From: Escherichia coli
GTDB lineage: Bacteria > Pseudomonadota > Gammaproteobacteria > Enterobacterales > Enterobacteriaceae
Direction: 5' to 3' (one strand)
Length of the DNA: 64,000 bases
Assembly: GCF_050920415.1 (NCBI RefSeq)
Contig: NZ_CP169309.1
A program made the translations under genes and the position numbers. Each line of letters begins with the position of its first letter. Positions within the stretch are counted from its first letter, which is position 1. Below are positions 4,056 through 39,043 of this stretch, piece by piece. Below the pieces are notes generated by a model. It had not been told where the DNA came from, ran no database searches, and saw nothing but the letters and a program-made list of their open reading frames with translations.

Positions 4056-4748
4056 TCAGGTCACCCGTTTAGCCCGACTTGCCTTCGTCCATTCTGGATT
4101 TGCACAGCGCGGACATAATTGTTTTTCCCCTGCGTTCATATGAATGATCTCACTGCAACGGATGCAAGCATAGTCCGCCGACTCAGGCACCACTTTGTAA
4201 CGCTGAGTACAGTCACTGGGTAAAATAAGTAATCCCGGTTTGACCTTGTCATCTTCAAAGAAATAGACACTGATTTGCCCGTTGGTTTCGAGAATCGCCA
4301 GACGTACCTGCCCCAACTGCTCCACTCCACGCAGTCGCAGCTCCATAAAGAACTCAAATTCCGTCATGTTGGAGTTATTAAGTTTCGACCAGGCCAGCTC
4401 ACCATCCTCAATAATGACAACCGGCTTGCCTTCCAGAAGATCCTCCAGTTTTTCACTGTGCGCCATCAACCACATTACCAGACGGTATAACAACGCCAGA
4501 GTAATAAAGACGATAAGCACCGGAACCATCGGCACATCATCATAAAACGCCACATCCCCCGCCGCTGACCCCAGCGTCAGAATGATTAACACTTCAAAAA
4601 GCGACATCTGCCGCACACCGCGTCTTCCGGTCATTTTGAGGAACAAAAAAACCAGTACAAAGGTATAAAGACTACGTAGTGCAACTTCGCCAAGGAAATC
4701 AAAAGGCACTTTATCAAGTGCCATACGGTGGAGATCGAACGCCTTCAT
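4056..4748 (-). CDS. ycaP: DUF421-family inner membrane protein YcaP
   Basis: 230-aa ORF in the conserved position between serC and ycaO; hydrophobic N-terminal half. Confidence 0.8.
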   Translation of the reverse strand: MKAFDLHRMALDKVPFDFLGEVALRSLYTFVLVFLFLKMTGRRGVRQMSLFEVLIILTLGSAAGDVAFYDDVPMVPVLIVFITLALLYRLVMWLMAHSEKLEDLLEGKPVVIIEDGELAWSKLNNSNMTEFEFFMELRLRGVEQLGQVRLAILETNGQISVYFFEDDKVKPGLLILPSDCTQRYKVVPESADYACIRCSEIIHMNAGEKQLCPRCANPEWTKASRAKRVT

Positions 4749-11251: not shown

Positions 11252-11842
11252 TTATAGTGCATCTACCATATCCCGTACCTGAGATAATAACGACTGATAA
11301 TAGCTCGCGTGAAGTTCTTCCCCATCGAATACCACTGTATTACACAAGAAAGTGACATCGGCATCTTCAATACCAAGATAACTGCACATATTTATCAAAT
11401 AATCGCTTATATTTTTTTCCCAGCCTATCTGGACAAATGATTCTTTGTCTCCTCCAACCAGCGCCACCCAACGAACTTTATTGAATGGTAATTTGTGCCC
11501 ATCTCCATAAGCCAGCCCATTATTCCATACTCTGTCAATATATCCTTTTAGCATTGCTGGGAAGCTGTACCACCAGAGAGGAAAAACCACCACTAACGTG
11601 TCATGTTCAAGCAGCTCTGAATAAAGCTGATGAACCTCTGGAGAATAACGTTTATCCATATTCTTCCAGTCTGGTTCATCTTCCGGCGTCATCACCGGGT
11701 TGAAATTACGCCGATATAAATCGAGTTCCGTCACCTGTATTTTCCGCTCCATTGCCCGCTGATGGATCGCATCAGCAATATGTGCGGTCAATGAATCATG
11801 ACGAGGATGGGCCCATACCAAATAAATACGTTCAGACTGCAT
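11252..11842 (-). CDS. ycaK: NAD(P)H dehydrogenase (quinone)-like flavoprotein YcaK
   Basis: 196-aa ORF starting MQSERIYLVWAHPRHDSLTAHIADAI. Confidence 0.85.
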   Translation of the reverse strand: MQSERIYLVWAHPRHDSLTAHIADAIHQRAMERKIQVTELDLYRRNFNPVMTPEDEPDWKNMDKRYSPEVHQLYSELLEHDTLVVVFPLWWYSFPAMLKGYIDRVWNNGLAYGDGHKLPFNKVRWVALVGGDKESFVQIGWEKNISDYLINMCSYLGIEDADVTFLCNTVVFDGEELHASYYQSLLSQVRDMVDAL

Positions 11843-20553: not shown

Positions 20554-20723
20554 AATGGCTCACTCAAGCTTGCTCACGATTGATTCCAGTAACAAACCGT
20601 ATTGTGTAATTATTTCTATAGCAGGTCGCTATATAGGTTTGTATACATCGAATGATTTGAAAATCAAAGAGATAGGCAGATTTTCACTCGAAAGTAGTAT
20701 TACGTGTAAGTGAGGAGTAATTA

Positions 20724-20737
20724 TTGTTCGGTATCAA
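20724..20737 (-). promoter_or_regulatory. FNR box of the dmsA promoter (TTGATaccgAACAA, minus-strand reading)
   Basis: Reverse complement of 20724-20737 is ttgataccgaacaa; dmsABC is a known FNR-activated operon. Confidence 0.6.
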
Positions 20738-20747
20738 AGGGAGACAA

Positions 20748-20773
20748 AAAAAGCGCCCGAAGGCGCTTTTTAG
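20748..20773 (-). terminator. rho-independent terminator downstream of serS (bidirectional hairpin)
   Basis: aaagcgcc-cgaa-ggcgcttt hairpin flanked by A-run and T-run. Confidence 0.7.
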
Positions 20774-20791
20774 ATTCAGAAAAATTGGGTA

Positions 20792-35577: not shown

Positions 35578-35606
35578 TTGACCGTTTTACTCCAACTCCC
35601 TATAGT
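35578..35606 (+). promoter_or_regulatory. candidate serW promoter (TTGACC -35, 17-bp spacer, TATAGT -10, GC-rich discriminator)
   Basis: Hexamers read at 35578-35583 and 35601-35606; gcgccccg discriminator typical of stringently controlled tRNA promoters. Confidence 0.55.
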
Positions 35607-35649
35607 AGCGCCCCGTTGCCCCCCATGAGGTCAGGCAGCAAAACAATTT

Positions 35650-35737
35650 GGTGAGGTGTCCGAGTGGCTGAAGGAGCACGCCTGGAAAGTGTGTATACGG
35701 CAACGTATCGGGGGTTCGAATCCCCCCCTCACCGCCA
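35650..35737 (+). tRNA. serW: tRNA-Ser (anticodon GGA)
   Basis: GGTGAGGTGTCCGAGTGGCTGAAGGAGCACGCCTGGAAAGTGTG...GGTTCGAATCCCCCCCTCACCGCCA; long variable arm; 88 nt. Confidence 0.95.
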
Positions 35738-35750
35738 TATTTGAAGAAGA

Positions 35751-35779
35751 GCTCGTACGAAAGTACGGGCTTTTTTTCG
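35751..35779 (+). terminator. rho-independent terminator downstream of serW
   Basis: ctcgtac-gaaa-gtacggg hairpin followed by TTTTTTT. Confidence 0.65.
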
Positions 35780-36028
35780 CATTTTATCTGCCTGTACGGC
35801 AGTGAACAAAATTACAAAGCATCAAAACCAGGGAATAGTTTTCTAAGCTGCCTGTACGGCAGTGAACTCAAATACTACACGTCTAGCCCGTTGTTAATAA
35901 AGCAAAACCATCTCATTTTCCTGCTGCCCCCCCCCCCCCCCCCCCTTTTTTATCCTTACCTTTCAGCTGCACTACTTATCAACAACTTACCATCATCATC
36001 AAAAAAAGGGTCTGAACCTCCTCCACCC

Positions 36029-36062
36029 CATAAATAAAAAGTCCGTAACCTCTTTCGAGATT
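36029..36062 (-). terminator. rho-independent terminator downstream of clpA
   Basis: gtccgtaa...ttacggac inverted repeat followed by a T-run on the minus strand. Confidence 0.6.
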
Positions 36063-36093
36063 ACGGACTTCACCAACCTACCTAACAATTAGA

Positions 36094-38370
36094 TTAATGC
36101 GCTGCTTCCGCCTTGTGCTTTTGTGCACTCTGGAATCCGTAAGTCAGCTCATTTTTCTCTTTATCCAGCGCAACCGTCACCTGACCGCCGTCCACCAGCG
36201 AACCAAACAACAGTTCGTTGGCGAGCGGTTTTTTCAGGTTGTCCTGGATGACACGCGCCATCGGACGTGCGCCCATCGCCCGGTCGTAACCTTTCTCGGC
36301 CAGCCAGTTACGCGCTTCCTGGCTCACTTCCAGAGAAACACCTTTCTGATCCAACTGAACCTGCAACTCGACGATGAACTTATCCACCACCTGATGGATC
36401 ACGTCGGTGGAGAGATGATCGAACCAGATAATGTTGTCGAGACGGTTACGGAATTCCGGTGTAAAGATCTTCTTGATCTCTTCCATCGCATCGGTGCTGT
36501 TATCCTGATGGATAAGACCAATCGATTTACGCTCAGTTTCCCGTACCCCGGCATTAGTGGTCATCACCAGCACCACGTTACGGAAGTCCGCTTTGCGTCC
36601 GTTGTTATCGGTCAGCGTACCGTTGTCCATCACCTGCAACAGAATATTGAACACGTCCGGGTGCGCTTTCTCGATTTCGTCCAGCAGCAGCACCGCATGA
36701 GGATGCTTGATGACCGCATCAGTCAGCAAACCGCCCTGATCAAAACCAACGTATCCCGGAGGCGCACCAATCAGACGGCTGACGGTATGGCGTTCCATAT
36801 ACTCGGACATATCAAAGCGTAACAGTTCAATGCCCAGAGCTTTGGAAAGCTGCACCGTCACCTCGGTTTTCCCGACCCCGGTAGGACCAGCAAACAGGAA
36901 CGAACCGACTGGTTTATGTTCGTGACCTAAACCTGCACGCGCCATCTTAATGGCTTCAGTCAGCGCCTCAATGGCTTTATCCTGACCGAAGACCAGCATT
37001 TTCAGGCGATCGCTGAGGTTTTTCAGGGTATCGCGGTCACTCTGAGAAACACTCTTCTCTGGAATGCGCGCAATACGGGCCACCACGGACTCAATATCCG
37101 CCACATTAACGGTTTTCTTGCGTTTGCTTACCGGCATCAGGCGTGCGCGAGCGCCCGCTTCGTCGATAACGTCAATAGCTTTATCCGGCAGATGACGATC
37201 GTTAATGTATTTCACCGCCAGCTCCACCGCAGCACGCACCGCTTTCGCGGTATAACGCACGTCGTGGTGCGCTTCATACTTCGGTTTCAGGCCATTGATG
37301 ATTTGAACAGTTTCTTCGATCGACGGTTCAGTAATATCAATTTTCTGGAAGCGACGCGCCAGAGCACGGTCTTTCTCGAAAATGTTGCTGAACTCCTGAT
37401 AGGTTGTCGAACCAATTACGCGAATTTTACCGCTGGAGAGCAACGGTTTGATCAGGTTAGCCGCATCAACCTGACCACCAGAGGCTGCACCCGCACCGAT
37501 AATGGTGTGGATCTCATCAATAAACAGGATGCTGTTAGTGTCCTGCTCCAGCTGCTTGAGCAACGCTTTAAAACGTTTTTCAAAGTCGCCGCGATATTTT
37601 GTGCCCGCTAACAGAGAACCGATATCGAGAGAGTAAATCGTACAGTCAGCCATCACTTCCGGCACATCGCCCTGAACAATTCGCCAGGCAAGACCTTCCG
37701 CAATCGCGGTTTTGCCGACACCGGATTCCCCCACCAGCAGCGGGTTGTTTTTACGGCGACGGCAGAGAACCTGAATAGCACGCTCCAGCTCCTTCTCACG
37801 ACCAATCAGTGGGTCGATTCCGCCCACACGCGCAAGCTGATTCAGGTTCGTCGTGAAATTCTCCATACGTTCCTCCCCACCAGCTTGTTCTTCGCTGTTT
37901 GGCTGGCTGCCAGGATCAGAAGACTGTGTCGGCTCGTCTTTACGCGTGCCATGAGAGATAAAGTTCACCACATCGAGACGGCTGACTTCATGTTTGCGCA
38001 ACAGATATGCCGCCTGCGACTCCTGTTCGCTAAAGATAGCGACCAGAACGTTTGCACCGGTAACCTCATTGCGACCGGAGGACTGGACATGGAAGACCGC
38101 ACGTTGCAGTACACGCTGAAAACTCAGCGTTGGCTGTGTGTCGCGCTCCTCTTCACTGGCAGGCAGAACGGGTGTGGTTTGTTCAATAAAGGCTTCCAGT
38201 TCCTGACGGAGCGCAACCAAATCCACAGAACACGCTTCCAGCGCCTCCCGGGCAGATGGGTTACTGAGCAGCGCCAGTAACAAGTGCTCGACGGTCATAA
38301 ACTCATGACGGTGCTCGCGCGCTCTGGCGAAAGCCATATTTAAACTGAGTTCCAGTTCTTGATTGAGCAT
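36094..38370 (-). CDS. clpA: ATP-dependent Clp protease ATP-binding subunit ClpA
   Basis: Start [31 protein letters not shown]; two AAA+ modules. Confidence 0.97.
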
Positions 38371-38721: not shown

Positions 38722-39043
38722 TGTCAGTTATCATCTTCGGTTACGGTTATCGGCAGAACGCCCTGCCGCTGACAAGAGCTTATTTGCCTGACCAATCTAC
38801 TCCACATGATAGATAACTATCATCTATCGTTGGCATCAGCGACATCTGTCACATTCCTGTCAATAGCGTTAACTGCTTCAAATTTTTGATTCATACCTGC
38901 CCCCTGGCCCCTGTCAAATGCTTGACGGCTCGCCCTAATTCTCTAAATTGTATTTCTAGAGTTGGCGAGGTTTTGAACAGCCCCCTCTCTGACCCCGGTT
39001 TATTCCATCTTACTTGTATAAGATTTGCGAAGGATGTCGAAGC

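What the first reader, a model, noticed from the sequence alone, without database searches (positions are those of the whole stretch)
35927..35945. C19 homopolymer downstream of tRNA-Ser serW
Nineteen consecutive cytosines followed by TTTTTT sit between the convergent 3' ends of serW and clpA. Homopolymers this long are very unusual in E. coli chromosomes and are prone to slipped-strand length variation. serW is a known integration hotspot (for example SpLE1/OI-43 in O157 strains), so this could be a scar of past integration or excision. A sequencing or assembly artefact at a homopolymer is an equally serious possibility.
Basis: seen in the sequence. Interest (0 to 1): 0.5.

Follow-up and report, generated by a model that had tools for sequence, protein, structure and literature searches.

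The report
Runaway poly-C in orphan CRISPR leader
The 19-cytosine run is real in the sequence; it is a slippage-grown single-base repeat that sprouted from a conserved motif in the leader of E. coli's leftover, cas-less type I-F CRISPR array, so it is a curiosity and a likely hypervariable marker, not a scar of island integration.

Summary
C19+T6 is exactly at 35927-35945/35946-51 and is the only homopolymer longer than 8 in the window. It is not anonymous spacer DNA. It lies in the leader of the orphan type I-F CRISPR array (CRISPR4.1-2) that nearly all E. coli carry between serW and clpA.

On the crRNA strand it reads A6-G19. This is the proximal inverted-repeat motif (AAAAAAGGG) of the I-F leader with its G end expanded.

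Almost all of 5,422 complete E. coli genomes have the interrupted form GGGTG(G). A small haplotype group (about 15 genomes) lost the interrupting base and shows G7, G8 and G11. The window has G19.

A near-clonal genome (5 SNPs in about 61.5 kb) differs by only one indel, at this tract (C11 against C19).

The tract moves the motif from the conserved 61-62 nt (57 of 60 motif-bearing I-F leaders from many genera) to 75 nt from the first repeat. No cas-F genes sit at this locus, so the change is probably neutral.

The integration-scar idea is refuted. The flanks are colinear in all strains, and the serW att core occurs once, 190 bp away. The exact length cannot be verified without reads.

Low interest: a new instance of a known kind (a microsatellite in decaying DNA).

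The parts
35650..35737 (+). serW, tRNA-Ser(GGA). Its last 14 bp (35724-35737, CCCCCTCACCGCCA) are the att core used by serW islands such as OI-43.
   Evidence: ARAGORN; Rfam tRNA; a single exact copy of the core; direct-repeat sequence from PMC3064760
35742..35779 (+). serW intrinsic terminator. Its T-run is T7 here and T8-T9 in relatives.
   Evidence: alignment
35780..35807 (-). Degenerate terminal type I-F CRISPR repeat
   Evidence: Rfam CRISPR-DR4, 29.7 bits, below the gathering score; sequence
35808..35839 (-). The single 32-nt spacer of the orphan array
   Evidence: No protospacer found in phages or plasmids (the query was shifted by 2 nt and covered 30 of the 32 nt)
35840..35867 (-). Intact type I-F CRISPR repeat GTTCACTGCCGTACAGGCAGCTTAGAAA (first, leader-proximal repeat)
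   Evidence: Rfam CRISPR-DR4, 50.1 bits, gathering score 35
35868..36037 (-). Leader of CRISPR4.1-2, read on the - strand from the clpA terminator towards the repeat
   Evidence: Same sequence adjoins a cas1f-proximal array in the cas-F+ strain ExPEC XM; nomenclature from PMC3903273
35884..35896 (-). IHF_proximal-like site (TAACAACGGGCTA, positions -29 to -17; 2 mismatches to WATCAANNNNTTR)
   Evidence: Position matches the cross-genus consensus; inverted repeat I1
35927..35945 (.). The C19 tract (G19 on the crRNA strand). Its last three bases (35943-35945) are the original GGG of IR_proximal.
35943..35951 (.). IR_proximal arm, CCCTTTTTT (AAAAAAGGG on the - strand)
   Evidence: Inverted repeat I2, 9/9 complementary; conserved in 85 leaders
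35977..35989 (+). IHF_distal site TATCAACAACTTA (perfect WATCAANNNNTTR)
   Evidence: Sequence. An exact consensus match starts at -108 in 21 of the 40 leaders itemised; it lies at -122 to -110 here, shifted by the tract.
36002..36010 (.). IR_distal arm, AAAAAAGGG (CCCTTTTTT on the - strand)
   Evidence: arm gap 49 nt
36038..36071 (-). clpA intrinsic terminator
36094..36096 (-). clpA stop codon (TAA); the gene continues to higher coordinates
   Evidence: Annotation of relatives mapped onto the window

Best explanation
The tract is a lineage-specific, slippage-expanded mononucleotide microsatellite. It grew out of the G/C end of the proximal inverted-repeat motif (IR_proximal, AAAAAAGGG on the crRNA strand) in the leader of E. 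coli's orphan type I-F CRISPR array, CRISPR4.1-2, at the clpA-infA locus.

Shown:
- The ancestral and near-universal sequence is AAAAAA-GGG-T-G(G)-C.
- One rare leader haplotype lost the interrupting T (A to C on the + strand), giving an uninterrupted G-run.
- On that haplotype the run is 7, 8, 11 and, here, 19.
- The flanks are otherwise identical.

Inferred:
- Once uninterrupted, the run passed the length at which replication slippage becomes frequent, and it drifted upward.
- This strain has no cas-F operon at the locus, so no Cas1-2/3 integrase reads the leader and nothing selects against the expansion.
- The expansion puts IR_proximal, IHF_distal and IR_distal 13 bp further from the first repeat (75 nt instead of the conserved 61-62). 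In a cas-F+ cell this should misphase the IHF/Cas1-2/3 folding of the leader and impair spacer integration.
- The tract is expected to be length-heterogeneous within cultures. The assembled value of 19 is a consensus with an uncertainty of a few bases.
For: Context:
- Rfam CRISPR-DR4 hits on the - strand.
- The same leader plus first repeat adjoins cas1f in ExPEC XM.
- The literature places the I-F locus between clpA and infA, with every E. coli keeping at least one CRISPR4 unit (PMC3903273).

Motif identity:
- Inverted repeat CCCTTTTTT/AAAAAAGGG flanks a perfect IHF site.
- Both leaders of the cas-F+ strain have 49 nt between the arms and 62 nt from GGG to the repeat.
- 85 unique I-F leaders from many genera, stacked ungapped on the first repeat, give AAAAAAaGGGT at -72 to -61, with G at -63 in 78 of 85.
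- The GGG-to-repeat distance is 61 or 62 in 57 of 60 leaders with the motif, and the G-run there is 3 in 54, 4 in 5 and 6 in 1.
- The architecture of two IHF sites and two inverted repeats matches the P. aeruginosa I-F integration complex (bioRxiv 10.1101/2023.05.26.542337).

Polymorphism:
- Alignments A1 and A2 and one search give GGG-to-repeat distances of 61-62 in all unexpanded haplotypes, then 63, 64, 67, 67 and 75.
- In 5,422 genomes only about 15 have a pure run, and the maximum is 11.
- Synthetic C19 queries on two other haplotypes found no expansion.

Hypermutability or isolated change:
- MFDS1022581 differs from the window by 5 SNPs and one indel (this tract) over about 61.5 kb of shared sequence.

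General rule:
- Indel rate at E. coli mononucleotide runs rises exponentially with length (PMC11754648).
- Long G/C runs are the most depleted (PMC1378130).
Against: - No reads are available, so the length of 19 may be an assembly or base-calling error.
- No other genome or metagenome contig has a run longer than 11, so the window is a singleton.
- Neutrality is inferred only from the absence of cas-F at this locus. A function for the orphan array or its leader has not been excluded.
- The predicted effect on integration rests on conservation of spacing and on a P. aeruginosa structure, not on an E. coli experiment.
- 34 of 94 leaders did not match my crude motif pattern. The ungapped consensus over the 85 leaders that remain after removing 9 with repeat remnants upstream still shows the motif.
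Confidence: 0.75

Rival explanations
1. Length artefact. The strain really carries about C11 or fewer, like its relatives, and the 19 arose in base-calling, assembly or polishing at a long G/C homopolymer.
For: The near-clonal MFDS1022581 and N96 both have C11. No other record in 5,422 genomes, JGI metagenomes or GTDB representatives has more than 11. Long G/C homopolymers are the known weak point of every sequencing platform (own knowledge).
Against: The rest of the assembly shows no homopolymer noise: there are zero other indels against MFDS1022581 in about 61.5 kb. Platform errors usually shorten long runs or shift them by 1-3 bases rather than add 8 (own knowledge). The relatives' C11 could itself be under-called.
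Confidence: 0.2
2. Scar of integration or excision of a serW-targeting island or prophage.
For: serW is a documented island site, for example OI-43 (PMC3064760). Some strains carry an integrase next to serW (ETEC1738).
Against: These islands recombine at the last 14 bp of serW and excise precisely. That core occurs once in the window, 190 bp from the tract. Sequence on both sides of the tract is colinear with all E. coli, including cas-F+ strains where it is the working CRISPR leader. The island-bearing ETEC1738 has the same leader.
Confidence: 0.02
3. Phase-variable switch. Tract length tunes transcription of the orphan crRNA, or read-through from clpA, or toggles the leader geometry for an I-F integrase supplied in trans.
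For: Long G/C tracts upstream of transcription units act this way in Neisseria, Haemophilus and Campylobacter (literature; own knowledge). The tract lies on the clpA-sense and crRNA-sense strand as G19 and could form a four-layer G-quadruplex. Length classes of 7, 8, 11 and 19 exist.
Against: No promoter-like site was found in 35600-36200 at the scan's threshold. The tract is not in an ORF. No cas-F genes sit at the locus. A pure run is present in only about 0.3% of genomes, so it is not a maintained feature. The lengths do not cluster at helical repeats.
Confidence: 0.04

Closest known systems
Type I-F CRISPR leader with two IHF sites and two inverted repeats (Wiedenheft lab; bioRxiv 10.1101/2023.05.26.542337; Santiago-Frangos et al. 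2021, as cited there)
   Same: The order repeat, IHF_proximal, IR_proximal, IHF_distal, IR_distal is the same. The AAAAAAGGG/CCCTTTTTT arms are 49 nt apart around a perfect IHF site. The ancestral E. coli spacing equals the cross-genus spacing.
   Different: Here the G end of IR_proximal is expanded to 19, so the upstream motifs sit 13 bp too far from the repeat. No Cas1-2/3 is encoded at the locus.
E. coli CRISPR-III locus with the orphan array CRISPR4.1-2 between clpA and infA (PMC3903273)
   Same: Same locus, same repeat and leader, single-spacer array without cas-F genes, as in most E. coli.
   Different: The long homopolymer in the leader is not mentioned in the passages of that paper that I read. 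It is absent from more than 99% of genomes.
Homopolymeric contingency loci (phase-variable poly-G/C tracts of Neisseria, Haemophilus, Campylobacter)
   Same: An uninterrupted G/C run long enough for frequent slipped-strand mispairing, with length polymorphism between close relatives.
   Different: No linked ORF or recognisable promoter, no recurrence across the species, and the host has efficient mismatch repair. There is no evidence of on/off phenotypes.
tRNA-gene island junctions at serW (OI-43; PMC3064760, which places strain Sakai's single Tel-resistance island at serX)
   Same: Proximity to serW.
   Different: The att core is the tRNA 3' end. There is no direct repeat, no foreign DNA and no break in colinearity at the tract.

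Membership tests
Type I-F CRISPR leader | Directly adjoins the first I-F repeat on the crRNA strand | tested here: met
   CRISPR-DR4 at 35840-35867(-), 50.1 bits. The leader is identical in kind to the one next to cas1f in ExPEC XM.
Type I-F CRISPR leader | IHF_distal site flanked by a short inverted repeat (IR_proximal and IR_distal) | tested here: met
   TATCAACAACTTA at 35977-35989, flanked by CCCTTTTTT (35943-51) and AAAAAAGGG (36002-10). The arm gap of 49 nt matches both leaders of the cas-F+ strain.
Type I-F CRISPR leader | Phase-locked distance of IR_proximal from the first repeat (GGG 61-62 nt upstream) | tested here: not met
   The window has 75 nt. The distance is 61-62 in 57 of 60 leaders from many genera and in all unexpanded E. 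coli haplotypes.
Type I-F CRISPR leader | Neighbouring cas1/cas2-3 operon that uses the leader | tested here: not met
   infA, serW, array and clpA are contiguous in the window. The cas-F operon of ExPEC XM has no counterpart here. The rest of the genome was not available.
Hypermutable mononucleotide microsatellite | Uninterrupted run far above the slippage threshold, derived from an interrupted ancestor | tested here: met
   C19 against the ancestral CCACCC or xCACCC.
Hypermutable mononucleotide microsatellite | Length polymorphism among close relatives with identical flanks | tested here: met
   Lengths 7, 8, 11, 11 and 19 on one haplotype. It is the sole indel against a near-clonal genome.
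Hypermutable mononucleotide microsatellite | Length heterogeneity within one culture | not testable with these tools
   Needs reads or colony PCR.
Phase-variable contingency locus | Repeat lies in an ORF or within or next to a promoter of a regulated gene | tested here: not met
   It is intergenic, and no promoter-like site was found in 35600-36200. This is a weak test, being a consensus scan only.
Phase-variable contingency locus | Maintained across the species or lineage | tested here: not met
   A pure run occurs in about 15 of 5,422 genomes.
Island integration scar at a tRNA gene | Duplicated att core or remnant foreign DNA at the site | tested here: not met
   Single copy of the 14-bp core; colinear flanks.

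The most novel reading that the evidence does not exclude
The G-tract works as a length-variable ruler inside a CRISPR leader. By slipping, it changes the phasing between the IHF/IR module and the first repeat, and so stochastically switches the array between competent and incompetent for spacer acquisition (or crRNA transcription) whenever an I-F system is present or arrives on a mobile element. That would be a phase-variable adaptive-immunity locus in E. coli.
Probability: 0.03. Interest if true: 0.55.

Novelty: new member of a known kind. Interest (0 to 1): 0.2.

Why it matters
There are three modest points.

1. The tract is an exceptionally long G/C homopolymer for E. coli. It is probably the fastest-mutating site in this chromosome region, which makes it a possible high-resolution strain marker and also a trap for assemblers and SNP/indel pipelines.

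2. It shows step by step (interrupted, then 7, 8, 11 and 19) how a microsatellite is born from a functional protein-binding motif once selection on that motif has lapsed.

3. The survey done here shows that IR_proximal of I-F leaders sits 61-62 nt from the first repeat across many genera. The natural series +1, +2, +5 and +13 therefore offers ready-made substrates for testing how strict the phasing requirement of the Cas1-2/3-IHF integration complex is.

No new biology is demonstrated.

Tried and rejected
- Integration scar: rejected. There is a single att core, 190 bp away, and the flanks are colinear.
- Search for the same or longer tracts elsewhere. JGI metagenome contigs had none with C of 9 or more. 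All 9 contigs with the general pattern carried the 7-nt interrupted form. GTDB species representatives had none with C of 7 or more. The window's own genome is not in the RefSeq complete set at 100% identity.
- Expansion on other leader haplotypes: synthetic C19 queries with O157-type and ST131-type flanks found only the native short site.
- Protospacer for the array's spacer: only chance-level hits in phages and none in plasmids. My query was offset by 2 nt and covered 30 of the 32 spacer bases.
- Promoter reading: the consensus scan found no sigma-70-like site in 35600-36200, so I could not place the tract relative to a promoter.
- G-quadruplex: ViennaRNA with G4 terms predicts a four-layer quadruplex for G19. 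This is a trivial property of any run of G15 or more and is not evidence of function.
- Literature: no top-ranked paper combines 'CRISPR leader' with homopolymeric tracts or phase variation.
- Terminator reading of C19+T6: rejected. No stem precedes the T-run, and the true serW and clpA terminators lie elsewhere.

Full report
**Observation**

The + strand of the window carries 19 consecutive C at 35927-35945, followed by T6 at 35946-35951. It is the only homopolymer longer than 8 in the 64 kb, and the next longest G/C run is 7. From base composition alone, about 4.5e-7 G/C runs of 19 or more are expected per window and about 3.5e-5 per 5-Mb genome. In 0.92 Mb of DNA fetched from about 90 other genomes, the longest G/C run is 9. 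The tract lies between serW (tRNA-Ser GGA, 35650-35737, +) and the clpA stop codon (36094-36096, - strand; mapped).

The serW-clpA spacer is not anonymous. On the - strand it holds an intact type I-F CRISPR repeat at 35840-35867 (Rfam CRISPR-DR4, 50.1 bits against a gathering score of 35). A 32-nt spacer follows at 35808-35839, and a degenerate terminal repeat at 35780-35807 (29.7 bits). The array sits between the serW terminator (35742-35779) and the clpA terminator (36038-36071).

This is the CRISPR-III locus of E. coli. The I-F system sits between clpA and infA, and every strain keeps at least one CRISPR4 unit. Strains without cas-F genes have one array, called CRISPR4.1-2, with a leader (PMC3903273).

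In the cas-F+ strain ExPEC XM, the same first repeat and the same upstream sequence adjoin cas1f-cas3f-csy1-4. The clpA-side stretch there is the working leader of CRISPR4.1. The tract therefore lies inside a CRISPR leader, 59 nt upstream of the first repeat. On the crRNA strand it reads AAAAAA-G19-CAGCAGG.

**What the tract grew from**

Within the leader, CCCTTTTTT (35943-35951) and AAAAAAGGG (36002-36010) form a perfect 9-bp inverted repeat. The arms flank TATCAACAACTTA (35977-35989), a perfect IHF core, WATCAANNNNTTR. A second, weaker IHF-like site lies at 35884-35896.

This is the published architecture of I-F leaders: two IHF sites and two inverted repeats. IHF and Cas1-2/3 fold these together with about 150 bp of DNA so that the first repeat reaches the Cas1 active site. 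Scrambling either inverted repeat limits integration (bioRxiv 10.1101/2023.05.26.542337; PMC12259127).

I tested the assignment in two ways.

First, both leaders of the cas-F+ strain have exactly 49 nt between the arms. Both also have exactly 62 nt between the GGG of the proximal arm and the first repeat. These are the CRISPR4.1 leader next to clpA and the otherwise dissimilar CRISPR4.2 leader next to serW.

Second, I scanned species-representative genomes for the I-F repeat. This yielded 85 clean, unique leaders from many genera, among them Photorhabdus, Pectobacterium, Serratia, Erwinia, Hafnia, Cedecea, Providencia, Halomonas, Azomonas, Neisseriaceae and Acinetobacter.
- Stacked without gaps on the first repeat, they give aaaCCcTTTTTTT at about -133 to -119 and AAAAAAaGGGT at -72 to -61, with G at -63 in 78 of 85.
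- The GGG-to-repeat distance is 61 or 62 in 57 of the 60 leaders that match the motif pattern.
- The G-run there is 3 in 54 leaders, 4 in 5 and 6 in 1.

So the last three C of the tract (35943-35945) are the original GGG of IR_proximal, and the other sixteen are an outgrowth towards the repeat.

**Comparison within E. coli**

The spacer region matches 5,422 of 5,426 complete genomes. Alignments of 15 representatives show that every major haplotype reads [C/T/G/-]CACCC-TTTTTT at the site, interrupted by an A (T on the crRNA strand). These include K-12, B, O157:H7, Nissle, ST131, cas-F+ ExPEC XM and others. Their GGG-to-repeat distance is 61 or 62.

An uninterrupted run occurs in only two settings:
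- One rare leader haplotype, which includes the window. It shows C7 in about nine genomes (e.g. Z0117EC0005), C8 in 2017-02-2CC, and C11 in MFDS1022581 and N96.
- Independently, C8 in ETEC1738-type strains.

No genome has more than 11. Synthetic C19 queries on O157-type and ST131-type flanks found no expansion on those backgrounds. Metagenome and species-representative scans found none either. The series of GGG-to-repeat distances is therefore 61-62, then 63, 64, 67 and 75.

**Mutability**

MFDS1022581 is almost the same clone as the window. Over about 61.5 kb of shared sequence there are 5 SNPs and a single indel, the 8-base difference in this tract. MFDS1022581 additionally has two IS2 copies and a 10-kb island that the window lacks.

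N96 shares a near-identical block of about 14 kb around the locus and also has C11.

A site that is the only indel between near-clonal genomes, on a haplotype with four length classes, behaves as a microsatellite. This fits two general findings. Indel rates at E. coli mononucleotide runs rise exponentially with length (PMC11754648). Long runs, G/C above all, are depleted in E. coli coding sequence, which the authors attribute to selection (PMC1378130).

**Mechanism (best explanation, confidence about 0.75)**

Shown:
- One substitution removed the interrupting base of GGGTGG in the proximal inverted repeat of a leader.
- The run then exists in progressively longer states.
- The window has no cas-F operon between serW and clpA.

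Inferred:
- Growth was by replication slippage.
- It is tolerated because no integrase uses this leader.
- The 13 extra base pairs would misphase the IHF/IR module relative to the repeat if an I-F integrase were present.
- The tract is heterogeneous in culture.

**Rivals**

1. Length artefact (about 0.2). The closest genomes have C11, and long G/C runs are hard for every sequencing platform. Against this, the assembly shows no other homopolymer indel in 61.5 kb, and errors of +8 are unusual. Only reads can settle it.
2. Integration scar (about 0.02).
   - serW islands recombine at the last 14 bp of the tRNA and excise precisely (PMC3064760).
   - That core occurs once, at 35724-35737, 190 bp from the tract.
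   - The flanks are colinear in all strains, including one with an integrase at serW.
3. Phase-variable switch (about 0.04). G19 lies on the clpA-sense and crRNA-sense strand and could form a quadruplex. However, no promoter-like site was found, no gene is linked to it, and the pure run is present in only about 0.3% of genomes.

**Novelty and interest**

The locus, the array, the leader architecture and microsatellite slippage are all known. The expansion itself does not appear in the passages of the E. coli CRISPR-III paper that I read. A literature search on CRISPR leaders with homopolymeric tracts or phase variation also returned nothing relevant.

I file it as a new member of a known kind, a mononucleotide microsatellite in a decaying regulatory region. 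Interest is low (0.2). Its main uses are as a hypervariable marker, as a warning for variant calling, and as a natural spacing series for testing the phasing rule of I-F leaders.

Noticed in passing
window 35780-35867 (- strand); L004 (2017-02-2CC), L005 (Z0117EC0005): Spacer turnover in the orphan I-F array on the expanded haplotype. Z0117EC0005 has only an older spacer (GGTATAAAAATCG...). 2017-02-2CC has that spacer plus the window's spacer at the leader end. The window, MFDS1022581 and N96 keep only the newer one. The window's spacer has no match in the phage or plasmid collections.
   Followed up: partly
window 35771-35777: The T-run of the serW terminator is also polymorphic: T7 in the window and MFDS1022581, T8 in N96 and most strains, T9 in 2017-02-2CC. 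This is ordinary short-homopolymer variation 150 bp from the C tract.
   Followed up: no
window 38807-38827 (TGATAGATAACTATCATCTAT); L009 23081-33403: The near-clonal strain MFDS1022581 carries a 10.3-kb island between clpS and yljB, flanked by this 21-bp duplication, which the window lacks. The island encodes an integrase, DNA primase, Icd-like protein, major capsid protein, head decoration protein and small terminase. It looks like a phage satellite (PICI-like).
   Followed up: partly
window about 11627-11631 and about 57642-57646; L026 10334-11663, L027 11920-13250: MFDS1022581 has two IS2 insertions that are empty sites in the window. One disrupts an NAD(P)H oxidoreductase gene and the other a pentapeptide-repeat protein gene. 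Each shows a 5-bp overlap in the alignment, consistent with a target-site duplication.
   Followed up: no
L007 462-598 (LR-28), L006 460-594 (ETEC1738), L023 1-45 (strain B): Some E. coli have an element of about 135 nt, annotated by PGAP as 'RtT sRNA', inserted between serW and the CRISPR remnant. In ETEC1738 it sits next to a tyrosine recombinase gene where serW would be. The window has no such element.
   Followed up: no
L126 (Candidatus Thiodiazotropha MAG), leader of the array starting at 4191: This is the only other I-F leader in the survey with an enlarged G-run at IR_proximal (AAAAAAGGGGGG, G6). Its GGG-to-repeat distance is still 62, so the extra G replace other bases rather than add length.
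   Followed up: no
window 15740-56110 against L010 (N96): The differences from N96 are strongly clustered: 20-60 per 2 kb in some blocks and 0-1 in others, with near identity over roughly 28-42 kb. This is a mosaic typical of homologous recombination. The CRISPR/leader haplotype with C11 lies in a shared block.
   Followed up: partly
window 20644-20778 (+) and 63313-63393 (-): Rfam matches above the gathering score: STnc130 sRNA (138.8 bits) and naRNA4/CssrE (78.4 bits). These are ordinary enterobacterial features, unrelated to the finding.
   Followed up: no
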